Source: Prevotella sp.
GTDB lineage: Bacteria > Bacteroidota > Bacteroidia > Bacteroidales > Dysgonomonadaceae
Direction of reading: 5' to 3'
NCBI GenBank assembly: GCA_031285625.1
Contig: JAITVV010000043.1
Span: 32,001-96,000, forward strand
DNA length: 64,000 nucleotides
The position numbers were made by a program, and so were the translations under genes. Shown here in pieces: positions 40,646 through 51,699 of the stretch. Numbering within the stretch: position 1 is the first letter of the stretch; each line of letters starts with the position of its first letter. Under the pieces are notes generated by a model, which made no database searches, was not told where the DNA came from, and saw only the letters and a list, made by a program, of their open reading frames with translations.

Positions 40646-40686
40646 AAGGACTAAAGGATATTCAATTCTTTTAGTCCTTTTTTATT
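40646..40686 (+). terminator. Rho-independent terminator of the phe operon
   Basis: AAGGACTAAAGGA-loop-TCTTTTAGTCCTT + T tract. Confidence 0.8.
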
Positions 40687-40729
40687 CACTATATAATACT
40701 CGTTCTATAAAATTAGTTAACTTTGCAAA

Positions 40730-41179
40730 ATGAGACTGAAACAGATAATCACTTTAACACTATTGATCTTTGCTAATATATTTCTATTAGCACACTCTGT
40801 TTTACCTCATTCGCACCATGACGGGGTTGTCTGTTTTTCACTCGAAGAATTAACACACCAACATCATTGTTCTGACCATCATGATGATGTAGGATGCTGT
40901 TGCGAACATGGTAAAAATGGCCATCATCATTCTAACACCGAAGATTGTGATTTAAAGGATATCGTACTCCGACAACAGGACAATACACATGAAGATATAT
41001 TGCCTTGTCCCAACTGCCTTTTATTAGCGTATACACTGTATTCGCTAAACGAATTCTATATAGAAGCTCCACAATTTGGAGAGCGCCTCCGACAAAAACC
41101 TTATTTAGAAAACTATATCCCTCCCTTCGTAGGCTCTGTAAAAAGTCTGCGTGCTCCTCCTGTATCTTATTTCAGTTAA
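40730..41179 (+). CDS. Secreted His/Cys-rich leader protein with C-terminal RAPP arrest-like motif (DUF6769/DUF2946-like)
   Basis: Signal peptide, 14 His, 8 Cys including CCC and CPNC, ends SLRAPPVSYFS; directly upstream of RND operon. Confidence 0.8.
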   Translation: MRLKQIITLTLLIFANIFLLAHSVLPHSHHDGVVCFSLEELTHQHHCSDHHDDVGCCCEHGKNGHHHSNTEDCDLKDIVLRQQDNTHEDILPCPNCLLLAYTLYSLNEFYIEAPQFGERLRQKPYLENYIPPFVGSVKSLRAPPVSYFS

Positions 41180-41289
41180 ATATAAGCCATCACTTTTAGT
41201 TGATAGCCGTTAGTCGTGAAAACGAAAGAAGCTAATAATTAACGGTCAATAGCTAAAAGCTAACTTGTAACTATTTAAGGAATAAGATA
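41163..41289 (+). promoter_or_regulatory. Long mRNA stem-loop pairing the leader ORF 3' end with the start region of the efflux adaptor gene
   Basis: 41163-41173 pairs with 41279-41289; nested stems 41176-80/41274-78, 41181-86/41264-69, 41193-201/41251-59, 41206-12/41240-46; TCGT-GAAA-ACGA tetraloop hairpin 41214-41225. Confidence 0.7.
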
Positions 41290-42570
41290 ATGAAACAATA
41301 TATAATTTATATCGCTTGTCTGTTGGCGATACTATGGGGATGCAACTCTAAACAAAAAACAGACGATCATACTGGGCATAATCACACTGAAGAATCTAAT
41401 GCCGGACACGACCACTCAAAAGATGGGCATACTCATGCCGATGGCGAAGAATGTAGTCATAATCATGAACATGAAGCAGAGCATAACCATGCACCCGGTG
41501 AAACATGTGACCATGACCATTCGACTGAGAATGTATCAGCAGAACATGGCGATGAAATAATGTTCAACCCCGAGCAGGCTAAATCAGCAGGTTTGGAAAC
41601 GGTAACAGTTCAACCCTCTACATTTTATCAGGTAATAAAAACCAGCGGTCAGATATTATCTGCTCAGGGTGATGAGGTAACTATTTCGGCTACATCGAGT
41701 GGCATTGTATCTTTCAACAAGCCATCATTAAATGAAGGCTTAGCGGTAAAAGGCGGTGAATCTCTTTTAAGCATTTCTTCCCGGAATATTGTAGATGGTG
41801 ACCCTGCTGTTAGGGCTAAATCAACTTATGATATTGCCCAACGTGAATTTCAGCGTGCCGAATCATTAATAGGCGATAAGCTTATTGCTGAAAAGGAATA
41901 CAACGAGATTAAGCTGAATTATGAAAATGCTAAGGTCGCTTATCAGGCGATAGCACAACGTTCAACAGCCAGAGGTGTGGGTATATCAACGCCGATTACC
42001 GGATTCATTAAAACAAAGCTGGTAAATGAAGGGCAATATGTAGAAGTAGGCCAAGCTCTTATGACGGTTACCCAAAACCGGAAGTTACAGCTTCGGGCAG
42101 ATGTTTCAGAACGTTATTATAAAGATTTGGGGAATATCACTTCTGCAAATTTCAAAACTCCTTATGATAAAACAGTTTATACCCTTGCCAACCTCAATGG
42201 CAGACTTGTTTCTTATGGTAAATCGTCCAGTAACCAGGAATATTACATTCCGGTCAATTTTGAATTTGACAATATAGGGCAGGTTATATCGGGTTCGTAT
42301 GTCGAAATCTATCTGTTGGGGCAGTCACGTAATAATGTAATATCTATTCCGGTATCGTCTCTTGTGGAAGAACAGGGGCTTTATTTTGTCTATCTGCAGG
42401 TTCACGAAGATGCTTATAAAAAGCAGGAGGTAACTCCTGGCACGAGTGACGGCAGTAACATAGAGATTCTTTCCGGTCTGAAAAAGGGAGATAAGGTTGT
42501 AAGTAAAGGCACTTACCACGTTAAGCTTGCTTCGGCTTCGGCATCTATTCCCCATGCTCATGAACATTAA
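41290..42570 (+). CDS. Heavy-metal RND efflux periplasmic adaptor (CzcB/CusB-like) with His-rich N-terminus
   Basis: Lipobox LWGC, His-rich tract, STPITGFI...EGQYV, EILSGLKKGDKVV, C-terminal HAHEH. Confidence 0.9.
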   Translation: MKQYIIYIACLLAILWGCNSKQKTDDHTGHNHTEESNAGHDHSKDGHTHADGEECSHNHEHEAEHNHAPGETCDHDHSTENVSAEHGDEIMFNPEQAKSAGLETVTVQPSTFYQVIKTSGQILSAQGDEVTISATSSGIVSFNKPSLNEGLAVKGGESLLSISSRNIVDGDPAVRAKSTYDIAQREFQRAESLIGDKLIAEKEYNEIKLNYENAKVAYQAIAQRSTARGVGISTPITGFIKTKLVNEGQYVEVGQALMTVTQNRKLQLRADVSERYYKDLGNITSANFKTPYDKTVYTLANLNGRLVSYGKSSSNQEYYIPVNFEFDNIGQVISGSYVEIYLLGQSRNNVISIPVSSLVEEQGLYFVYLQVHEDAYKKQEVTPGTSDGSNIEILSGLKKGDKVVSKGTYHVKLASASASIPHAHEH

Positions 42571-42709: not shown

Positions 42710-45700
42710 ATGCTAAATAAAATAATACAATTTTCGCTAAACAATCGTCTGGTTGTTCTTATCGGGGCTGTGCTTCTTCTTATTGGAGGACTGTATACAG
42801 CCAGAAATATGGAGATAGATGTATTCCCCGACCTGAATGCGCCTACCGTTGTTATCATGACAGAGGCAAACGGCATGGCGCCGGAAGAAGTAGAACGCCT
42901 TGTATCTTTCCCTATCGAAACGGCTGTAAATGGTGCGACTGATGTGCGCCGTGTGCGTTCGTCTTCTACTACAGGTTTTTCTGTTGTATGGGTTGAATTC
43001 GATTGGGGAACAGATATTTATAAGGCTCGCCAGATAGTAACTGAGAAACTGGCTACACTAGGTGATGCCCTTCCCGGAAATATAGGGCAACCTACCTTAG
43101 GACCACAATCTTCTATCTTGGGAGAGATAATGATTATCGGTCTGACCTCTGATTCTACTTCACTGTTAGACTTGCGTACAATTGCAGACTGGACTATTCG
43201 CCCACGATTACTTTCTACTGGTGGAGTGGCACAAGTTACAGTTATTGGTGGTGATATCAAGGAGTATCAGATATTACTTGACCCGGGGAGAATGAAACAT
43301 TATGGGGTCTCTCTTGATGAGGTATTACAGGTAACCCGCAATATGAATCAGAATGCTTCAGGCGGTATCTTATATGAATATGGAAATGAATATATTGTAA
43401 GAGGTGTCTTGCAAAGTACGGATGTAAATGAAATAGGCAAGGCTGTTATCAAGAAGGCCGGAGAAAGCCCTATCTTAGTGAGTGATGTCGCTGATATTAA
43501 GATAGGAGCTAAAACGCCGGTATTGGGCGTTGCTTCGGAAAGGACTAAGCCTGCCGTTTTACTTACTGTAACCAAGCAACCGAATACCAATACAATTGAA
43601 CTGACCGATAAGTTGGATACATCTATTGCCGATTTACAGAAAAGCCTTCCCTCTGATGTGAAGGTTACTACTGATATTTTCCGTCAGGAACGCTTTATCA
43701 ACAACTCCATTAATAATGTACAGAAGTCGTTGTACGAGGGGGCTATTTTTGTAGTTATTATCCTGTTCCTCTTCCTGATGAATGGGCGTACTACATTTAT
43801 ATCCTTGATGGCTCTGCCTCTATCTTTGCTGACTTCTATCCTTGCGCTCAAACTGATGGGACTAACCATCAATACAATGAGTCTGGGAGGAATGGCGATT
43901 GCAATAGGTTCACTGGTAGATGATGCCATTATCGATGTAGAGAATGTATTTAAACATTTAAGGGAAAACAGGCAAAAGCCTAAAGAAGAACAAAAAAGTG
44001 TACTTACTGTCGTATTTGAAGCTTCTAAAGAAGTGCGGATGCCAATACTGAACTCAACTCTGATTATCGTTACCAGCTTCATCCCTTTATTTTTCCTGAG
44101 TGGAATGGAGGGGCGTATGCTTGTTCCGCTGGGTATTGCTTTCATTGTGGCATTGTTTGCCTCTACAGTGGTGGCATTGACCGTAACTCCTGTCCTTTGT
44201 AGTTATCTCTTAGGTAAGAATAAGAAAGACAAGGAAGAAAAAGAGCCAGTCTTTGTTGTAAAACTAAAAACCGTATATGAGAAAAGCTTGCATTGGGCAT
44301 TGGAAAAGCAAAAGATTGTTCTGGGAATAACAGGGTTGCTTTTACTTTCAGCTATTATAATCTTCTTCACTTTTGGGCGTAACTTCCTGCCTCCTTTCAA
44401 TGAGGGCTCTTTTACGATTACGATAAATACATTGCCGGGAATATCTCTTGAGGAATCAGATAAAGTGGGGTCTATGGCCGAAAAAGCAATACTTAGCGTA
44501 CCTGAAATACAGACTGTAGGACGGAAAACCGGACGGGCCGAACTCGATGAACACTCTTTTGGAGTAAATACCTCGGAAATAGAGGCTCCGTTTATGTTAA
44601 AAGACCGTTCTCAGGAGGATATGCTAACCGAACTTAGGGAAAAACTGAATGCTATACCCGGTATAAGCGTTGAAATAGGTCAGCCTATATCGCACCGTAT
44701 AGACCATATGCTTTCAGGTACTAAGGCCAATATTGCCATTAAGTTATTCGGGCCGGATTTGAACAAACTGTATTCTTTAGGAAATGATATCAAATCGAAG
44801 ATAGAAAGTGTGGAAGGCGTTGCCGACCTGAATGTGGAACAACAAGTGGAACGCCCACAGTTAAAGATTGTTCCCAAACGGGAATTACTGGCTAAATATG
44901 GAATTACCTTACCTGAGTTTTCAGAATTTGTAACGACCATGCTTTCCGGAGAAGTTGTTTCTCAGGTGTATGATGCCGGGAAAAGCTTCGATCTGACATT
45001 GAAAGTGGACGATAATTATAAAGACCAAGCCGAAAAAATCAGGAATCTGATGATAGATGCTAATGGCCTGAAGATTCCTTTTGCCTATGTGGCGGATATC
45101 ACCTCTTCTACAGGCCCGAATACAGTGAACAGGGAAAATGCCCAACGTAAAATTGTAGTATCGGCAAATGTTGCCGGAAGGGATTTGCGCAGCGTAGTAA
45201 ATGATATTCAGAAAAGTGTAGATGAGAATATTCAATTACCGGAAGGATATCATATTGAATATGGAGGCCAGTTTGAGAGTGAACAAGCTGCATCACGTAC
45301 AATTATGATAGCTTCTGTCTTCGCTATTCTGATTATATTCCTGTTATTATTCAATCAGTTCAGGAATATAACACAGTCAGCCGTTATCCTTCTGAATCTG
45401 CCTCTGGCACTGATTGGTGGGGTATATGCTATACTATTTACCTCCGGTGAAATCAGTATTCCTGCCGTTATCGGGTTTATTGCCCTGTTTGGTATTGCCA
45501 CACGCAACGGTATCCTGTTGATGGCTCACTATAATGACTTGGGACATAGGGGGTATTCTGTGAATAAGAGTATTTTGCAAGGGTCTTTAGACCGGTTGAA
45601 TCCGATATTGATGACTGCCTTGTCTTCAGGCTTGGCGCTGATTCCATTGGCTGTTCAGGGAGGTCTTCCCGGAAATGAGATTCAAAGCCCGATGGCGAAG

Positions 45701-45814
45701 GTTATTCTGGGTGGATTACTCACTTCTACATTACTAAATATGTATATTGTACCCATTATATACAGAATGTTGAAGAAAAGGGAACCTGCTGTAAAAGAAG
45801 AGATTGTTAAATAA
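42710..45814 (+). CDS. czcA: CusA/CzcA family heavy-metal RND permease
   Basis: IDVFPDL, APEEVERLV, GGMAIAIGSLVDDAIIDVEN, RLNPILMTA. Confidence 0.92.
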   Translation: MLNKIIQFSLNNRLVVLIGAVLLLIGGLYTARNMEIDVFPDLNAPTVVIMTEANGMAPEEVERLVSFPIETAVNGATDVRRVRSSSTTGFSVVWVEFDWGTDIYKARQIVTEKLATLGDALPGNIGQPTLGPQSSILGEIMIIGLTSDSTSLLDLRTIADWTIRPRLLSTGGVAQVTVIGGDIKEYQILLDPGRMKHYGVSLDEVLQVTRNMNQNASGGILYEYGNEYIVRGVLQSTDVNEIGKAVIKKAGESPILVSDVADIKIGAKTPVLGVASERTKPAVLLTVTKQPNTNTIELTDKLDTSIADLQKSLPSDVKVTTDIFRQERFINNSINNVQKSLYEGAIFVVIILFLFLMNGRTTFISLMALPLSLLTSILALKLMGLTINTMSLGGMAIAIGSLVDDAIIDVENVFKHLRENRQKPKEEQKSVLTVVFEASKEVRMPILNSTLIIVTSFIPLFFLSGMEGRMLVPLGIAFIVALFASTVVALTVTPVLCSYLLGKNKKDKEEKEPVFVVKLKTVYEKSLHWALEKQKIVLGITGLLLLSAIIIFFTFGRNFLPPFNEGSFTITINTLPGISLEESDKVGSMAEKAILSVPEIQTVGRKTGRAELDEHSFGVNTSEIEAPFMLKDRSQEDMLTELREKLNAIPGISVEIGQPISHRIDHMLSGTKANIAIKLFGPDLNKLYSLGNDIKSKIESVEGVADLNVEQQVERPQLKIVPKRELLAKYGITLPEFSEFVTTMLSGEVVSQVYDAGKSFDLTLKVDDNYKDQAEKIRNLMIDANGLKIPFAYVADITSSTGPNTVNRENAQRKIVVSANVAGRDLRSVVNDIQKSVDENIQLPEGYHIEYGGQFESEQAASRTIMIASVFAILIIFLLLFNQFRNITQSAVILLNLPLALIGGVYAILFTSGEISIPAVIGFIALFGIATRNGILLMAHYNDLGHRGYSVNKSILQGSLDRLNPILMTALSSGLALIPLAVQGGLPGNEIQSPMAKVILGGLLTSTLLNMYIVPIIYRMLKKREPAVKEEIVK

Positions 45815-45828
45815 ATAAGCTATAGTTT

Positions 45829-47004
45829 ATGAAACGAATAATATATATTCTCTTATTTCTACTTGCGATAAATGTACAGGCGCAAGACTCATTTAATAAT
45901 GTGATTAGAGAAATTGAGGCTAATAATACAACCCTGAAAGCCTACAGGGAAAAAGCCAATGCCGATAAGATAGGCAACAAAACAGGTATTAATATGGCCA
46001 ATCCCGAAGTAGAATTCGGTTACCTATGGGGAAGCCCCTCTGCTATAGGTCATAAGATAGACCTGAATGTAACCCAGTCATTTGATTTCCCTACAGCCTA
46101 TCGTTATAAGAATCAGTTAGCTGATGGAAAGAATGTACAGGTAGATATGATTTATAATCAGCAATGTATGGAAATTCTGCAGGAAGCCAGACTGTTGTAC
46201 GTTCAATTGGTGTATCAGGCAAGCATGCATAAAGAGTTATCTCAGAGGCTGATGCAGGCAAGAGAATTATCAGATGCTTATCAGAAGAGTTTCGACCAGG
46301 GAAATATAGATATCCTGGAGCGGAACAAAACTAAGCTGAACCTGCTGAGTGCAGAGAAAGCTTTACAGATAAACGAAGTAGATATGAACCTGTCAAAATC
46401 TGAACTGCAACGCCTGAACGGAGGTCTGGAATTGACCTCTATAGCAGACAGTTATCCCGCTTTTGTGTTCCCTCTAAACTTTATTGAGTGGTTTGAAAGG
46501 ATAAAAGATAATAATCCCGCGCTTCAGGTAACTGAACAGGAGATTGCACTCAGTAGGAAGCAGGAACAACTGACACGTGCCCTCAACCTTCCCAAAATAA
46601 CTGCCGGATATACCAGTGAAAGGACTTCCGGCGAGACTTTTCAGGGAGTTTCGGTAGGGGTATCTATTCCTCTGTGGGAAGGGAAGAACACCGTGAAGCA
46701 TCAGAAAGCACAAACTGTTGCTTTGCAGATGCAACATGATGACTCGAAGCTGCAGTTTAGGAATTCTCTTAAAAATCAGTATGATAAAGCGAAGAAACTA
46801 TCCTTGTTATTGAGAGAGTATCAGGAAGCCTTAAGTGTTACAAGCAATCAGGAATTATTGAAAAAAGCATTGGATAAGGGTCAATTGTCTCTTATTAATT
46901 ATCTGTTGGAACTATCCGTATATTATGAAACAATGGATAAATATCTGGAAACAGAAAGAGACTACCAGTTGGCTGTAGCAGAATTACAGCGATGGGAAAG
47001 ATAG
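45829..47004 (+). CDS. TolC/CzcC family outer-membrane factor
   Basis: Signal peptide, NPEVEFGY, LPKITAGY, GVSIPLW; last gene of RND operon. Confidence 0.85.
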   Translation: MKRIIYILLFLLAINVQAQDSFNNVIREIEANNTTLKAYREKANADKIGNKTGINMANPEVEFGYLWGSPSAIGHKIDLNVTQSFDFPTAYRYKNQLADGKNVQVDMIYNQQCMEILQEARLLYVQLVYQASMHKELSQRLMQARELSDAYQKSFDQGNIDILERNKTKLNLLSAEKALQINEVDMNLSKSELQRLNGGLELTSIADSYPAFVFPLNFIEWFERIKDNNPALQVTEQEIALSRKQEQLTRALNLPKITAGYTSERTSGETFQGVSVGVSIPLWEGKNTVKHQKAQTVALQMQHDDSKLQFRNSLKNQYDKAKKLSLLLREYQEALSVTSNQELLKKALDKGQLSLINYLLELSVYYETMDKYLETERDYQLAVAELQRWER

Positions 47005-48870: not shown

Positions 48871-51699
48871 ATGAATAATTTAACCAGGTATACCTTCTTT
48901 CTATTATTTATCTCCTTACCTATTATATCAGTTTTTTCCAATAAGCCTCATGTTATCAATCTCCAAAAAGCAAGATATAAAGCTGATAATAAAAACTGGT
49001 CGATAGACCAGGATGAACGAGGGGTTATGTATTTTGGAAATGACATCGGATTGCTAGAATTTGATGGTATAGAGTGGAAATTAAACCGTATACCAAACTC
49101 TCTAACTGCCAGATCTGTGGCTGTGCAATCACATAATACGATCTTTACAGGTAGCTACGAAGAATTTGGCAGATGGGATCGGGATATTTCCGGAAAATTA
49201 ATTTATACATCATTAAGCGATCAATTAGATAAAGCCCTTTTCAAAAATGATGATTTCTGGAAAATATGGATTGCCGAAGATTGTGTTTATTTTCAGTCTT
49301 TTTCGTCAATATACATATATGATTTCGAAACAGTAAAACCTTTGCGTGCCGAAAAAGAGTTCCTCTTCTTATCTAAGGTCAGAGATGAGTTTTTGGTACA
49401 GCAAATGCTAGGACCTATTTATAGATTAAAAGGCTCAACTTTAACAAAAATCGAAGGAAGTGAAATTTTTCGTAATACTGACGTTCGTGTAATATTACCC
49501 TATTCCACAGATAAATATTTGATAGGCACATCAACAAATGGAATCTATATCTATGATGGAATATCATTCAACGAATGGAATCCTCAATTATCAGCTACAT
49601 TAAATTCGGCTGAGTTAAACTGTGGAATCAGAGCCAGTGACGGAACATATTTTTTGGGGACAATATTAAATGGCATTTATCAAGTTGACCAAAATGGTCA
49701 TATTAAAGATAACATATCTACTGAAAGCACTTTACAAAACAATACAATACTTTCACTTTACGAGGATGATCTTGGAAATATATGGGCAGCTTTGGACAAA
49801 GGAATTTCTTACATTCAATATATAGAAAATATAAGCTGCTATACAGATCAAAGAGGGAATACCGGAGCAGTGTACGGAGCTGCTCTTTGGAAAGATAAAT
49901 TATTCATAGGAACCAATCAAGGTGTTTTTAGCATAACTAAAGAAGACCTCAATAAACCTTATGCCCTATCAAGAATGAAACTGGTAAATGGTACACAAGG
50001 GCAGGTTTGGGCTCTCAAAGTTATTGGAGAAAAGTTATATTGTTGCCATAATAAAGGGTTGAAAGAGATACAGGCTAATGGGGCATCTGTAGATGTGTAC
50101 AACATAGGCACAGGTGTATATAATATATCCGAAGCTATTTACAAAGACAGGAGCCTGCTATTCTTGTCAACTTATCAATCCCTAAAGATCATAGATAGAG
50201 AAACAAAGAAAGTATTTGATCCGCGTCAGATATCCGAACCAATAATAAATGCTGACGTAGATCATCTGGGAAATATATGGTTAGAACATTTCAACAGAGG
50301 GATATATCGTTGTAAACTTGAAGATAACCTGTCAGGCTTTCAGACATTTTCATACTATGGGGGTAGTAATAAAGATAATCTGCCATATAAACTGAAGATG
50401 TTTAAAGTAGGCGGACGCATTGTGCTGTTGGGAAATAATAAATTCTTTACGTATGATGATATAGCCAATAAAATAATACCTAATACGCTATTAGACGAAT
50501 GTTTTAGGAATATTAAAAATCTAAAACAAGTAATCCATATTCAAAACAATATATTTTGGGCGCTTACCGATGCTTCGGTTTATAAATTTTCTTATGACGG
50601 ATACGAAGCAAACATTCTTGAGAGTTATAATTTAGGGATGAATCTATCATTAGTAAACACCTACGAGAACATATCAATATTAAATGATTCGACCAGCCTT
50701 ATTTGCCTTGATAATGGCTTCTTACTTTATCAGAAAGAGAAAAGCACTTCTAATAACTATCAGCACAAACTGCCGCTCCCCTACCTTGCATCATTGGAAA
50801 CGATGAGTACAAGTGGAGACGTCGAATATAAAGGTATATCTCAGGCTGCTCAGATACCATACGATTCCAATACTATATCATTTAGTTTTTCTGCAGAAAA
50901 CGCATTTGCTTCAAATTTCTCTTTTCAATATATGCTACAAAATGTAGATAATAACTGGTCGGCACCCGCAAAGATAAATGAAGTAACATATGCTCGTTTA
51001 CCTGAAGGTAAATATGTATTTATGATCCGCTCCGTTGATAATTTAGGAAATTACTCAGAAATCGTATCATATGAATTTGAGATATTGTCGCCATGGTATC
51101 AAACTATTGGGGCTTATATAGTATATATACTTATTTTTATAGCCATCATGTATGGAGTATGGTTACTAATACTTAGACGTTACCGTAATCTCCACCTACA
51201 AAAGATCAGACATCGTGAAACAAAACGTTTGAGAGCATTGACGGGTGAGCTTCAACAAGAAGTGGAACAGAAAAGTGCAGAACTACTCACTCAAACATCA
51301 TTCATTATACAAAAGAATGAATTGATCTTAAAAGTAAAAGATATTATTGATGAATTTTACTCCCGGAATAAGAGCAGTGCCCTAATACCACTATATCAAA
51401 AGATAAACGCACTTCTCAACAACAACCTTAATACTGAAGATGACTGGAAAACATTTTTATTAAAATTTGAAGAAAAACATACAGGGTTCTTTAAAAAAAT
51501 GAAAGCATTATATCCTCAGTTAACCAACAATGACCTCCGGCTATGTGCTTGCTTAAAATTAAATTTAGAAACGAAAGAGATAGCTTCGCTCATGAATTTA
51601 TCAATAAGAGCTGTTGAAAACAGTCGATATAGATTAAGAAAAAAGTTAAATTTACTACCTTCCCAAAATCTGAATGAGTTTTTTCTTGATATCGATTAA
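48871..51699 (+). CDS. Membrane-spanning one-component regulator: beta-propeller/Y_Y_Y sensor, TM, LuxR-type HTH
   Basis: NWSIDQD...GLLEFDG propeller, YMLQNVDNNWS...YARLPEGKYVFMIRS, PWY-TM, LTNNDLRLC...KEIA...VENSRYRLRKKL. Confidence 0.85.
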   Translation: MNNLTRYTFFLLFISLPIISVFSNKPHVINLQKARYKADNKNWSIDQDERGVMYFGNDIGLLEFDGIEWKLNRIPNSLTARSVAVQSHNTIFTGSYEEFGRWDRDISGKLIYTSLSDQLDKALFKNDDFWKIWIAEDCVYFQSFSSIYIYDFETVKPLRAEKEFLFLSKVRDEFLVQQMLGPIYRLKGSTLTKIEGSEIFRNTDVRVILPYSTDKYLIGTSTNGIYIYDGISFNEWNPQLSATLNSAELNCGIRASDGTYFLGTILNGIYQVDQNGHIKDNISTESTLQNNTILSLYEDDLGNIWAALDKGISYIQYIENISCYTDQRGNTGAVYGAALWKDKLFIGTNQGVFSITKEDLNKPYALSRMKLVNGTQGQVWALKVIGEKLYCCHNKGLKEIQANGASVDVYNIGTGVYNISEAIYKDRSLLFLSTYQSLKIIDRETKKVFDPRQISEPIINADVDHLGNIWLEHFNRGIYRCKLEDNLSGFQTFSYYGGSNKDNLPYKLKMFKVGGRIVLLGNNKFFTYDDIANKIIPNTLLDECFRNIKNLKQVIHIQNNIFWALTDASVYKFSYDGYEANILESYNLGMNLSLVNTYENISILNDSTSLICLDNGFLLYQKEKSTSNNYQHKLPLPYLASLETMSTSGDVEYKGISQAAQIPYDSNTISFSFSAENAFASNFSFQYMLQNVDNNWSAPAKINEVTYARLPEGKYVFMIRSVDNLGNYSEIVSYEFEILSPWYQTIGAYIVYILIFIAIMYGVWLLILRRYRNLHLQKIRHRETKRLRALTGELQQEVEQKSAELLTQTSFIIQKNELILKVKDIIDEFYSRNKSSALIPLYQKINALLNNNLNTEDDWKTFLLKFEEKHTGFFKKMKALYPQLTNNDLRLCACLKLNLETKEIASLMNLSIRAVENSRYRLRKKLNLLPSQNLNEFFLDID

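What the first reader, a model, noticed from the sequence alone, without database searches (positions are those of the whole stretch)
40730..41292. Candidate RAPP ribosome-arrest leader gating translation of a heavy-metal RND efflux operon
Seen: the 149-aa ORF has a signal peptide, 14 His and 8 Cys (CCC, CPNC) and ends LRAPPVSYFS, with RAPP codons at 41150-41161. The bases just after, TATCTTATTTC (41163-41173), are complementary with one G-U to GGAATAAGATA (41279-41289), the 11 nt directly before the adaptor ATG at 41290. The region between folds into nested stems with a GAAA-tetraloop hairpin. Established: RAPP/RAGP-type motifs arrest ribosomes in SecM, ApdA and ApdP and in the copper-linked proteobacterial leaders CruR and CutF; in secM-secA and mifM-yidC2 a stalled ribosome melts a hairpin to expose the downstream initiation site. 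Inference: a ribosome stalled at the last Pro would cover about 41163-41175 and free the efflux start, with arrest modulated by Sec pulling and/or metal binding to the His/Cys domain. No metal-responsive transcription factor is adjacent. I know of no characterised example controlling a Bacteroidetes Czc/Cus pump, but cannot check the literature.
Basis: partly seen in the sequence, partly recalled or inferred. Interest (0 to 1): 0.92.

Follow-up and report, generated by a model that had tools for sequence, protein, structure and literature searches.

The report
Metal-sensing ribosome-arrest leader of efflux pump
A small exported His/Cys-rich protein that ends in the ribosome-stalling motif RAPP sits in front of a heavy-metal efflux pump, and its last codons base-pair with the pump operon's start site, so it most likely acts as a translational metal switch like CutF and CruR of proteobacteria, here in Bacteroidota.

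Summary
ORF 40730-41179 (149 aa, 14 His, 8 Cys) ends LRAPPVSYFS, and 41163-41173 pairs with 41279-41289 in the MFE fold (z -2.65).

The ORF belongs to Pfam DUF6769. RAPP is its best-conserved feature:
- invariant in 47 of 47 close homologues;
- RAPP or RGPP in 146 of the 150 best-scoring family representatives, usually 2 residues before the stop.

In 24 other Bacteroidia genomes, 22 downstream genes are RND efflux parts.

The helix between the post-RAPP segment and the next gene's start recurs with unrelated arm sequences. Cognate arms pair better than non-cognate arms in both sets:
- 25 genome loci: -7.45 vs -4.45 kcal/mol, p=2e-5;
- 57 metagenome loci: -8.55 vs -4.77 kcal/mol, p<=5e-5.

In this genome RAPP occurs in only two ORFs. 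Both are small and lie upstream of envelope transporters.

Best reading (0.75): a CutF/SecM-type arrest leader, where a ribosome stalled at RAPP opens the helix and lets the adaptor gene initiate. Arrest, the metal ligand and the direction of control are untested.

Öztürk et al. 2023 already catalogued CutF-like ORFs upstream of RND genes, many from Bacteroidota. I rate this a new, uncharacterised member of a known kind.

The parts
40646..40689 (+). Intrinsic-terminator-like hairpin plus T-run that ends the upstream DAHP synthase/chorismate mutase gene. It marks the leader ORF as the start of a new transcription unit.
   Evidence: 13-pair stem 40646-40679, then TTTTATT; for the upstream gene
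40718..40725 (+). TAACTTTG, which matches the Bacteroidota -7 promoter element TAHHTTTG. It lies at -12..-5 from the A of ATG 40730, so a leaderless or nearly leaderless mRNA is predicted.
   Evidence: Sequence. The same box lies at -12 to -14 in 17 of 17 related loci. Element positions T-12 A-11 T-8 T-7 T-6 G-5 relative to the TSS are from PMC6847099 (passages). No TSS data.
40730..41179 (+). Leader ORF of 149 aa, Pfam DUF6769. It has an N-terminal hydrophobic export signal or anchor, a His/Cys-rich exported part, and a C-terminal LRAPP followed by 5 residues.
   Evidence: (28.8 bits, cut-off 27)
40730..40798 (+). Residues 1-23 (MRLKQIITLTLLIFANIFLLAHS): a positively charged N-terminus, a hydrophobic core and an A-H-S site. 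This is a signal peptide or signal anchor.
   Evidence: Read from the translation. The family consensus is LLAHAVxPHHHH. No signal-peptide predictor was available.
40805..41017 (+). Residues 26-96: the putative metal-binding part (PHSHH, CCC, HHH, DCDL, CPNC). Family-wide invariant or near-invariant residues are P26, H27, H29, H30 and C73.
41096..41161 (+). Residues 123-144 (KPYLENYIPPFVGSVKSLRAPP): the conserved segment that would lie in the exit tunnel at the arrest point. It ends in the RAPP codons 41150-41161.
   Evidence: K123, P124, Y125, Y129, P132, G135 and L140-P144 are conserved in the close set; L140, R141, P143 and P144 are conserved family-wide.
41163..41186 (+). 5' arm of the long-range helix. 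It covers the last codons, the stop codon TAA at 41177-41179 and 7 nt beyond. It starts 2 nt after the RAPP codons, so a ribosome stalled at RAPP would occlude roughly its first 8-10 nt.
41193..41259 (+). Inner nested hairpins of the intergenic region, including the GAAA-loop hairpin (loop at 41218-41221). Their sequence varies between relatives.
41264..41289 (+). 3' arm of the helix: the A-rich translation initiation region directly upstream of the adaptor ATG. 41279-41289 pairs with 41163-41173.
41290..42570 (+). RND periplasmic adaptor of 426 aa. It is a lipoprotein with a His-rich N-terminal stretch and a C-terminal PHAHEH.
   Evidence: TIGR01730 134.8 bits, cut-off 94.9
42710..45814 (+). 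Heavy-metal-type RND pump of 1034 aa (CusA/CzcA family).
   Evidence: TIGR00914 821.5 bits, cut-off 701.45; CusA 501.6 bits, ZneA 497.4 bits
45829..47004 (+). Outer-membrane efflux protein (OEP/TolC-like), 391 aa.
   Evidence: PF02321, E = 4.8e-32

Best explanation
The ORF at 40730-41179 is a regulatory leader (a 'monitoring substrate'). It is a DUF6769 protein, built like CutF/CruR and working like SecM.

Proposed sequence of events:
1. The ORF is the first gene of the efflux operon. It is probably translated from a leaderless mRNA.
2. Its hydrophobic N-terminus takes the nascent chain to the Sec translocon. The His/Cys-rich part (residues about 26-96) reaches the periplasm while the ribosome is still finishing the chain.
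3. At Arg141-Ala-Pro-Pro144 the ribosome arrests, with Pro143 in the P site and the Pro144 codon in the A site.
4. In free mRNA the segment just after RAPP (41163-41186) pairs with the A-rich region directly upstream of the adaptor ATG (41264-41289). In a phylum that initiates without Shine-Dalgarno pairing, this hides the start site.
5. The arrested ribosome occludes the first 8-10 nt of the 5' arm. That frees the nucleotides next to ATG 41290, and a second ribosome can start on the adaptor-pump-OEP genes.
6. How long the arrest lasts is set from outside the cytoplasm. Pulling by export and folding releases it. By analogy with CutF, metal bound to the exported His/Cys segment weakens that pull. 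Metal excess would therefore prolong arrest and switch the pump on.

Shown here: the motif and its conservation, the synteny with efflux genes, the predicted helix and its covariation across lineages.

Inferred: the arrest itself, export of the chain, metal binding, which metal, and the sign of regulation.
For: (1) Motif conservation
- L140, R141, A142, P143 and P144 are invariant in 47 of 47 sequences.
- 17 of 17 related genome loci have LRAPP followed by 3-6 residues and a stop.
- A profile search of 1.84 billion representatives gave 859 hits at E<=1e-3. Of the best 150, 131 have RAPP, 15 have RGPP and 4 have neither. In 98 of the 146, exactly 2 residues follow the motif.
- Across 115 diverse members (21-62% identity to the query) the only invariant columns are H27, C73, R141 and P143.
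- The motif's codons vary synonymously (CGT/CGA/CGC/AGG/AGA; GCT/GCA/GCG/GCC; CCT/CCC/CCG/CCA). Selection is therefore on the peptide.

(2) Rarity in this genome
- RAPP occurs 0 times in 3,495 ORFs of 150 aa or more (1.40 M residues; 4.4 expected from composition).
- Only 3 R[AG]PP motifs occur in all 7,535 ORFs of 60 aa or more. Two of them are C-terminal in small ORFs with a hydrophobic N-terminus: this one, and one upstream of a TonB-dependent receptor.

(3) Synteny
- In 24 other Bacteroidia loci the downstream gene is an HlyD adaptor in 16, ACR_tran in 4, OEP in 2, a TonB receptor in 1 and a methyltransferase in 1.
- In 77 evaluable metagenome loci, BLAST found 44 adaptors, 5 pumps and 4 small His-rich ORFs. 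Of 10 'other' genes tested with Pfam, 5 more are HlyD adaptors.

(4) Helix
- It is in the MFE fold of 17 of 18 Dysgonomonas-type loci.
- RNAalifold recovers 12 pairs, 3 of them with compensatory changes.
- 97.1% of cells are paired, against 43-64% when the partner is slid. The covariation score is 0.202 against 0.150 in shuffles (0 of 500 reach it).
- Cross-lineage test (24 nt after RAPP against -24..+6 of the next start), 25 genome loci: cognate -7.45 vs non-cognate -4.45 kcal/mol, permutation p=2e-5. With uncorrected starts the values are -7.09 vs -4.55, p=5e-5.
- The result holds without the two unpublished genomes and without the own locus.
- It was replicated on 57 non-redundant metagenome loci: -8.55 vs -4.77 kcal/mol, p<=5e-5. 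23 of 57 cognate pairs lie below the 5th percentile of non-cognate pairs.
- In the strong cases the 5' arm starts 1-6 nt after RAPP, and the 3' arm ends within about 10 nt upstream of the ATG or runs into it.

(5) Predicted effect
- The mean unpaired probability of -15..+6 rises from 0.29 in free mRNA to 0.55 when the mRNA is occluded up to 41171.

(6) Precedent
- RAPP arrests E. coli and B. subtilis ribosomes (PMC10951233, abstract start seen).
- RAPP/RGPP arrest is refractory to EF-P, and the motifs sit near the C-termini of small secretory proteins upstream of metal genes (PMC12992588, abstract and section 13).
- In Bacteroidota, initiation lacks SD pairing and is tuned by structure in the initiation region (PMC6847099, passages).
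Against: - No experiment or expression data bear on arrest. The RNA-library contigs of relatives neither bridge the gap nor show transcript ends.
- The helix is strong in only 9 of 25 genome loci (rank 2 or better in both directions) and 23 of 57 metagenome loci. The other loci show nothing above background in this narrow window.
- Within the Dysgonomonas clade the 5' arm also encodes the conserved tail VSYFLG*. Its conservation is therefore confounded, and only 3 of 12 pairs show double changes.
- Any ribosome that reaches the stop codon would also open the helix: unpaired probability 0.60. Plain translational coupling predicts the same structure.
- The predicted gain in accessibility is modest (0.29 to 0.55), and alternative weak pairings appear in the occluded state.
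- The RAPP depletion in this genome has low power. Same-composition tetrapeptides occur only 0-8 times each.
- No member matches DUF2946 (0 of 115).
- No structure model could be made.
Confidence: 0.75

Rival explanations
1. CruR-type control. The RAPP arrest is real, but it acts on transcription. A stalled or released ribosome would decide whether Rho or an intrinsic terminator in the 110-nt spacer stops RNA polymerase before the adaptor gene. On this view the long-range helix is secondary.
For: - CruR, the characterised RAPP metal leader I read about, works through Rho-dependent termination (PMC9426467 abstract).
- Roughly half of the loci lack a strong helix between the post-RAPP segment and the start region.
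- Some relatives carry terminator-like hairpins followed by T-runs inside the spacer, for example L029.
- One family member (L054) and the second RAPP ORF of this genome precede TonB-dependent receptors, as cruR does.
Against: - In the window no terminator-like site lies on the + strand between 41180 and 41289.
- By eye, the spacer is A/U-rich and predicted to be structured, which would be poor Rho-loading RNA. I did not compute the spacer's base composition.
- The arm complementarity is specific to each locus's own start region. A pure termination model does not require that.
Confidence: 0.1
2. No regulated arrest. The ORF encodes a working periplasmic or membrane-anchored metal-binding accessory protein of the pump, CzcI/CusF-like. 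The helix only provides ordinary translational coupling, so that the adaptor is made when the accessory protein is made. RAPP is at most a brief, EF-P-resolved pause or a structural motif.
For: - The His/Cys-rich exported part and the constant synteny with RND parts fit an accessory protein.
- A terminating ribosome alone is predicted to open the helix.
Against: - The body of the protein is poorly conserved (mean column identity 23%). The C-terminal LRAPP and the PHxHH motif just after the N-terminal hydrophobic segment are the best-conserved stretches. That is the pattern of an arrest peptide rather than of a folded binding protein.
- RAPP is otherwise absent from this genome's ORFs of 150 aa or more. 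The literature reports it as selected against because it arrests ribosomes even with EF-P (PMC12992588 abstract).
- The same leader also precedes unrelated genes (EamA transporter, methyltransferase, TonB receptor), with strong helices of -16.9, -13.1 and -11.7 kcal/mol.
Confidence: 0.1
3. Secretion monitor. The arrest reports Sec/YidC capacity, as SecM, MifM and VemP do, rather than metal. The His/Cys content would be incidental.
For: The N-terminal export signal plus a C-terminal RAPP is the classical architecture of Sec-monitoring arrest peptides (PMC12992588 section 13).
Against: - The downstream genes are efflux components, never Sec or YidC genes, in the 24 and 77 loci examined.
- H27, H29, H30 and C73 are conserved family-wide.
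Confidence: 0.05

Closest known systems
CutF of Rhodobacter capsulatus (cutFOG; DUF2946 family)
   Same: - Small exported leader encoded first in the operon.
- Cys/His metal motif in the exported part.
- C-terminal proline stalling motif.
- Short spacer (about 100 nt) whose structure shields the next gene's start and is melted by the stalled ribosome.
- The target is a metal-detoxification function that should be induced by metal.
(PMC9973294 abstract and sections 10-12; preprint 10.1101/2025.02.05.636593 abstract and Discussion.)
   Different: - Pfam family DUF6769, not DUF2946 (0 of 115 members match DUF2946).
- The motif is RAPP/RGPP. That motif is reported as refractory to EF-P (PMC12992588 abstract), whereas EF-P helps relieve stalling at CutF's PPP repeat (preprint Discussion).
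- The sensor motif is PHxHH plus scattered Cys, instead of CxxxC.
- The target is an RND efflux operon.
- The shielded element is an A-rich, SD-less initiation region closed by a long-range helix that includes the leader's own last codons.
CruR (Bp2923) of Bordetella pertussis
   Same: C-terminal RAPP in a small exported, metal-sensing upstream ORF that heads a metal-homeostasis operon (PMC9426467 abstract). Arrest at RAPP with the third and fourth codons in the P and A sites was shown in vitro (PMC12992588 passage).
   Different: CruR senses Cu through CXXC. It controls a TonB-dependent importer through Rho-dependent termination, and copper relieves the arrest, switching the operon off. Here an efflux pump should be switched on, and the conserved feature is a helix over the start site.
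SecM-secA (E. coli); ApdA/ApdP and other RAPP arrest peptides upstream of Sec/YidC genes
   Same: The arrest motif is of the RAPP/RAGP class near the C-terminus of an exported leader. The stalled ribosome exposes the downstream initiation site, and release is by pulling force (PMC12992588 sections read; PMC10951233 abstract start).
   Different: The downstream genes are not protein-localisation machinery. A conserved His/Cys sensor segment is present.
CzcI of Cupriavidus metallidurans (upstream of czcCBA)
   Same: A small ORF directly upstream of a heavy-metal RND operon, suggested to be a metal-sensing regulator (PMC9973294 Discussion passage).
   Different: CzcI lacks the C-terminal proline motif according to that paper. 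No arrest mechanism has been proposed for it.

Membership tests
Pfam DUF6769 (PF20558) | Score above the curated gathering threshold over the full-length model | tested here: met
   28.8 bits against a cut-off of 27, covering profile positions 3-129 of 130. 110 of 115 diverse relatives also match.
RAPP-class ribosome arrest peptides (ApdA/ApdP/CruR type) | RAPP or RGPP close to the C-terminus, conserved among homologues at the peptide level | tested here: met
   47 of 47 close homologues; 146 of the 150 best-scoring family representatives; 77 of 78 complete metagenome ORFs; synonymous codon variation
RAPP-class ribosome arrest peptides (ApdA/ApdP/CruR type) | Small (<300 aa) protein with an N-terminal export or membrane signal | tested here: inconclusive
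   149 aa. The N-terminus MRLK plus a hydrophobic stretch of about 17 residues plus AHS reads as a signal peptide or anchor (family consensus). No predictor was available to tell a cleaved signal from an anchor.
RAPP-class ribosome arrest peptides (ApdA/ApdP/CruR type) | Encoded directly upstream of, and on the same strand as, the gene it regulates | tested here: met
   110-nt gap to the adaptor gene. The same arrangement holds in 17 of 17, 24 of 24 and 71 of 77 loci (5 of the remaining 6 have 204 nt or less of sequence after the stop, and 1, L094, has 1,805 nt but no ORF of 60 aa or more starting within 300 nt).
RAPP-class ribosome arrest peptides (ApdA/ApdP/CruR type) | Demonstrated elongation arrest (peptidyl-tRNA accumulation or a toeprint at the motif) | not testable with these tools
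   Needs in vitro translation, toeprinting or ribosome profiling.
CutF-like metal-sensing leaders (DUF2946 and relatives) | Sequence membership in DUF2946 | tested here: not met
   hmmscan against Pfam returns only DUF6769 for P0001 at E<=0.1. 0 of 115 relatives match DUF2946 at E<=0.01.
CutF-like metal-sensing leaders (DUF2946 and relatives) | The operational filters of Öztürk et al. [quoted passage not shown] | tested here: met
   149 aa; PP at residues 143-144 of 149; hydrophobic N-terminus; 110-nt gap. Filters as given in PMC9973294 section 10. Whether DUF6769 proteins are in their list D cannot be checked because the supplements are closed.
CutF-like metal-sensing leaders (DUF2946 and relatives) | RNA structure that shields the downstream start and can be opened by the stalled ribosome | tested here: met
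   Predicted helix, conserved with covariation, and a predicted gain in accessibility. This is prediction only.
CutF-like metal-sensing leaders (DUF2946 and relatives) | Metal-dependent change in downstream expression that requires the leader in cis | not testable with these tools
   Needs reporter genetics.
SecM/MifM/VemP-type secretion monitors | The downstream gene encodes a Sec or YidC pathway component | tested here: not met
   Downstream genes are RND adaptor, pump or OEP.
Heavy-metal-efflux RND systems (CusCBA/CzcCBA) | Pump scores above the HME-RND subfamily cut-off; adaptor and OEP are encoded alongside | tested here: met
   TIGR00914 821.5 bits against 701.45. The adaptor matches TIGR01730 and the OEP matches PF02321. 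The pump is equally close to CusA and ZneA, so the metal is undetermined.

The most novel reading that the evidence does not exclude
DUF6769 as a whole (at least 859 clusters at 50% identity) is a Bacteroidota-wide, portable arrest-peptide sensor module. On this reading:
- it is translated from a leaderless mRNA;
- it reads periplasmic metal through a PHxHH/Cys segment on the nascent chain;
- it gates SD-independent initiation of whatever gene follows, by a helix built from its own last codons;
- the following gene is mostly an HME-RND pump, but also an EamA exporter, a TonB receptor and others;
- in these operons it stands in for the two-component or MerR-type regulators that proteobacteria use.
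Probability: 0.45. Interest if true: 0.65.

Novelty: new member of a known kind. Interest (0 to 1): 0.55.

Why it matters
- It would give a function to a whole Pfam domain of unknown function.
- It would provide the first arrest-peptide switch worked out in Bacteroidota. That phylum initiates translation without Shine-Dalgarno pairing, so structure over the start region is the natural control point.
- It would explain how many Bacteroidia metal-efflux operons that have no adjacent regulator are controlled. Those searched include relatives from gut and insect-gut metagenomes.
- It offers a compact, cis-acting, periplasm-sensing switch.
- The Pfam model also matches in Bacteroides thetaiotaomicron (control result), so the idea could be tested in a genetically tractable species.

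Tried and rejected
There is no fold or metal-site model.
- A metagenome scan with the diverse alignment A3 failed for lack of a conserved stretch. It was repeated with the narrower alignment A5. The replication set is therefore biased towards the HAV[IV]PHHH subgroup.
- RNA evidence: 3 runs were found and laid on the window. The two RNA-type runs hold contigs of relatives that are about 90% identical. They cover the leader and the adaptor start separately and do not bridge the spacer. Contigs cannot show level, ends or strand, so they give no evidence for or against co-transcription.
- NCBIfam has no model for the leader.
- The ESM Atlas returns only DUF6769 and unnamed Bacteroidota clusters.
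- RAPP depletion in this genome is 0 observed against 4.4 expected. The direction is right but the power is low, because same-composition tetrapeptides occur 0-8 times each.
- The sigma-70 promoter scan (6 sites against 4.8 expected) is uninformative for this phylum.
- A transcription-attenuation reading for the window was considered and set aside. No + strand terminator-like site lies in the spacer.
- Metal specificity could not be assigned. The pump scores alike against CusA and ZneA. The His-rich adaptor only hints at divalent cations.
Full report
**1. What is in the window**

ORF 40730-41179 (+) encodes 149 residues that end ...SLRAPPVSYFS*. It has 14 His and 8 Cys, including CCC and CPNC. 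The RAPP codons are CGT GCT CCT CCT at 41150-41161.

The N-terminus (MRLK, a hydrophobic stretch, then AHS) reads as a Sec signal or anchor. PHSHH follows it directly.

The ORF starts a transcription unit:
- A terminator-like hairpin with a T-run (40646-40689) closes the preceding aromatic-amino-acid gene.
- TAACTTTG at 40718-40725 matches the Bacteroidota -7 promoter element.

Downstream lie three efflux genes:
- a His-rich lipoprotein RND adaptor (41290-42570);
- a CusA/CzcA-family pump (42710-45814; TIGR00914 821.5 bits against a cut-off of 701.45);
- an OEP (45829-47004).

The pump scores alike against CusA (501.6 bits) and ZneA (497.4 bits), so the metal is open. No regulator of a known metal-responsive type is among the nine flanking genes scanned.

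**2. The RNA pairing**

The MFE fold of 41150-41310 is -32.7 kcal/mol with z = -2.65; 2 of 200 shuffles fold as well.
- 41163-41173 pairs with 41279-41289.
- The helix is extended by 41176-41186 pairing with 41264-41278.
- These arms close nested hairpins that include a GAAA-loop hairpin.

Partition-function folding puts the mean unpaired probability of -15..+6 around ATG 41290 at three values:
- 0.29 in free mRNA;
- 0.55 if a ribosome occludes the mRNA up to 41171;
- 0.60 for a terminating ribosome.

**3. Family and motif**

The ORF is a member of Pfam DUF6769 (28.8 bits against a cut-off of 27).

Close homologues:
- A word-indexed search found 46 homologues.
- In the 47-row alignment, L140, R141, A142, P143 and P144 are invariant.
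- 17 genome loci, mostly Dysgonomonas, all have LRAPP, then 3-6 residues, a stop, a gap of 81-103 nt and a His-rich adaptor.

Distant homologues:
- A profile search of 1.84 billion representatives gave 859 hits at E<=1e-3.
- Of the best 150, 131 carry RAPP and 15 carry RGPP near the C-terminus.
- The other 4 have RSPP, RVPP, RAPT or a truncated end.
- In 98 of the 146, exactly 2 residues follow the motif.
- In 115 diverse members (21-62% identity to the query) the invariant columns are H27, C73, R141 and P143. P26, H29, H30, L140 and P144 are at 90% or more. Mean column identity is only 23%.
- 110 of the 115 match DUF6769 and none matches DUF2946.

The motif codons vary synonymously between loci. 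The constraint is therefore on the peptide.

**4. Rarity of the motif in this genome**

- In the 4.84-Mb assembly, RAPP and RGPP occur 0 times in 3,495 ORFs of 150 aa or more. Composition predicts 4.4 and 4.6.
- Power is low, because same-composition tetrapeptides occur only 0-8 times each.
- Among all 7,535 ATG-ORFs of 60 aa or more there are only three R[AG]PP motifs.
- Two of them are C-terminal in small ORFs with a hydrophobic N-terminus. One is this ORF. The other is a 126-aa ORF on contig C52, 176 nt upstream of a TonB-dependent receptor, which is the CruR arrangement.

**5. Distribution and synteny**

- The Pfam model matched 7 of 301 genomes sampled across the phylum, 4 of them above the cut-off. 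It also matched in the Bacteroides thetaiotaomicron control.
- My own profile matched 40 of 401 genomes sampled from the class.
- Of 30 loci returned, 25 have an RxPP tail: 17 RAPP, 7 RGPP and 1 RPPP.
- Four loci end ...RGSPLSISLA/…RGSPSFIFSA and one ends ...HSPPLV.
- In the 24 loci other than the window's own, the downstream gene is an HlyD adaptor in 16, ACR_tran in 4, OEP in 2, a TonB receptor in 1 and a methyltransferase in 1.
- In six 'adaptor' loci a separate 79-89-aa His-rich lipoprotein ORF lies between the leader and the adaptor. It starts 84-91 nt after the leader's stop.
- These counts include two genomes flagged as unpublished (G382 = L047 and G454 = L053). Both were scored as adaptor loci.

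A metagenome scan returned 80 loci:
- 77 are evaluable. Of these, 73 have RAPP and 4 have RGPP. One locus has no motif and 2 run off the contig.
- In 63 of the 77, 2 residues follow the motif.
- By BLAST the downstream genes are 44 adaptors, 5 pumps, 4 small His-rich ORFs, 18 'other' and 6 with none in reach.
- Of 10 'other' genes scanned with Pfam, 5 are HlyD adaptors, 2 are EamA transporters, 1 is a glutaminyl cyclase and 2 have no family.

**6. Is the helix conserved?**

Within the Dysgonomonas-type set:
- The MFE fold contains the helix between the post-RAPP segment and the start region in 17 of 18 loci. L003 folds in another register.
- RNAalifold recovers 12 pairs, 3 of them with compensatory changes.
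- 97.1% of cells are paired, against 43-64% with slid partners.
- The covariation score is 0.202 against 0.150 in shuffles (0 of 500 reach it).
- This clade has a confound: the 5' arm also encodes the conserved tail.

The stronger test compares lineages. For each locus I took the 24 nt after RAPP and positions -24..+6 of the next start. I then compared duplex energies of cognate and non-cognate arm pairs.

| Set | Loci | Cognate (kcal/mol) | Non-cognate (kcal/mol) | Permutation p |
|---|---|---|---|---|
| Genome loci, first-ATG starts | 25 | -7.09 | -4.55 | 5e-5 |
| Genome loci, starts corrected | 25 | -7.45 | -4.45 | 2e-5 |
| Without the two unpublished genomes | 23 | -7.56 | -4.39 | 2e-5 |
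| Also without the window's own locus | 22 | -7.29 | -4.32 | 2e-5 |
| Metagenome loci (near-duplicates removed from 71) | 57 | -8.55 | -4.77 | <=5e-5 |

- The start correction used a lipobox rule and allowed for the small intervening ORFs. It was made without looking at the pairing.
- In one search, 9 of 25 loci rank 2 or better in both directions.
- In one search, 23 of 57 cognate pairs lie below the 5th percentile of non-cognate pairs.
- Shifting the 5' window into the coding region before RAPP removes the signal (-4.4 and -4.3 kcal/mol).
- The arms differ completely in sequence between lineages.
- In the strong cases the 5' arm begins 1-6 nt after RAPP, and the 3' arm ends within about 10 nt upstream of the ATG or runs into it.
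- About half of the loci show nothing above background in this narrow window.

**7. Mechanism**

The parts fit the CutF/SecM scheme:
- an export signal;
- an exported His/Cys segment, residues about 26-96. This segment would be outside the tunnel and translocon when residue 144 is at the peptidyl-transferase centre;
- a conserved tunnel segment, KPY...GLRAPP;
- arrest with Pro143 in the P site and Pro144 in the A site, as shown for CruR in vitro (PMC12992588 passage);
- a 5' arm that the arrested ribosome would partly occlude;
- an A-rich, SD-less initiation region as the 3' arm.

Bacteroidota lack SD pairing, and initiation there is tuned by structure in the initiation region (PMC6847099 passages).

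For an efflux pump, the CutF logic is the sensible sign: metal on the nascent exported chain weakens the pull that releases arrest, which switches the target on (preprint Discussion). That sign is inference. So are the arrest itself, the export and the ligand.

**8. Rivals**

- CruR-type control of termination: 0.10.
- An ordinary accessory protein with plain translational coupling: 0.10.
- A pure secretion monitor: 0.05.

The portability of the leader argues against a dedicated pump accessory. It sits in front of an EamA transporter, a methyltransferase and a TonB receptor, each with a strong cognate helix (-16.9, -13.1 and -11.7 kcal/mol).

**9. What is known**

- RAPP arrest peptides have been solved on E. 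coli and B. subtilis ribosomes (PMC10951233, abstract start only).
- Fujiwara et al. 2025 (PMC12992588; abstract, section 13 and passages read) report that RAPP and RGPP are depleted from proteomes, Bacteroidota included. The motifs are enriched near the C-termini of small secretory proteins upstream of metal genes. They state that Cu-related uORFs were not found in Bacteroidota. The words efflux, RND and DUF do not occur in their main text.
- Roy et al. 2022 (PMC9426467; abstract and section 10 read) characterised CruR.
- Öztürk et al. 2023 (PMC9973294; abstract, sections 10-12 and passages read) characterised CutF. They also listed 5,334 CutF-like proteins, 19% of them from Bacteroidota (40% after normalisation). 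OEP, ACR_tran and HlyD_D23 were among the named downstream neighbours, and OEP was the most frequent.
- The class has therefore been predicted in bulk.
- Searches for DUF6769 (1 paper, on Salmonella T6SS, not read), for Bacteroides with arrest peptide, efflux and uORF, and for DUF2946/CutF-like/CruR since 2023 found no characterised Bacteroidota case.

**10. Verdict**

- The finding is a new, uncharacterised member of a known kind.
- Two features seem unreported in what I could read: the near-invariant RAPP as the signature of a whole Pfam DUF, and a start-site helix built from the leader's own last codons in an SD-less phylum.
- The predicted leaderless start is a further lead: the -7 box lies at -12..-5 from the ATG in the window and at -12 to -14 in 17 of 17 relatives. 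Only about 3.7% of B. thetaiotaomicron 5' UTRs are shorter than 10 nt (PMC7366714 passage).

Noticed in passing
outside the window: G000 contig C52, minus strand, 142213-142593 (ORF) and 139751-142036 (receptor): This is the only other RAPP ORF in the genome. It is 126 aa, has a hydrophobic N-terminus and HSH motifs, and ends ...CYFNHRAPPFSVL*. It lies 176 nt upstream of a 761-aa TonB-dependent receptor, which is a CruR-like arrangement.
   Followed up: partly
window 40718-40725: The -7 promoter box TAACTTTG lies at -12..-5 from the leader ATG, which predicts a leaderless mRNA. The box is at -12 to -14 in 17 of 17 Dysgonomonas-type loci and at -12 to -19 in 11 of 25 diverse loci. Short leaders are rare in B. 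thetaiotaomicron: about 3.7% of 5' UTRs are under 10 nt (PMC7366714). No TSS data are available here.
   Followed up: partly
L036, L039, L040, L043, L047, L053 (spacer between leader and adaptor); compare window 41290-41530: In six genomes a separate 79-89-aa His-rich lipoprotein ORF follows the leader and precedes the adaptor. In the window a similar His-rich stretch is the N-terminus of the adaptor itself. This looks like a split or fused form of one module. L047 and L053 come from genomes flagged as unpublished.
   Followed up: partly
L034, L037, L041, L042, L051: These are family members whose C-terminus reads ...RGSP(L/S)... or ...HSPPLV instead of RAPP or RGPP. Whether these variants still arrest ribosomes is unknown.
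   Followed up: no
L073, L101, L102 (EamA); L035 (methyltransferase); L054 (TonB receptor); L105 (glutaminyl cyclase): The leader also precedes genes that are not RND parts. In L073, L101, L035 and L054 it has a strong cognate helix. In L105 the cognate duplex is at background (-5.0 kcal/mol) and RAPP lies 14 residues from the end, which is atypical.
   Followed up: partly
window 48871-51699: A 942-aa protein has a Y_Y_Y domain and a weak sigma-70 region-4-like C-terminus (E = 6.4e-4, below the cut-off). It resembles the sensor part of Bacteroidota hybrid regulators, and no link to the efflux operon was found.
   Followed up: no
window 41290-41460 and 42550-42567: The adaptor carries a long His/Asp/Glu-rich N-terminal stretch after its lipobox, and it ends in PHAHEH. 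This hints at divalent-cation handling, although the pump scores equally against CusA and ZneA.
   Followed up: no
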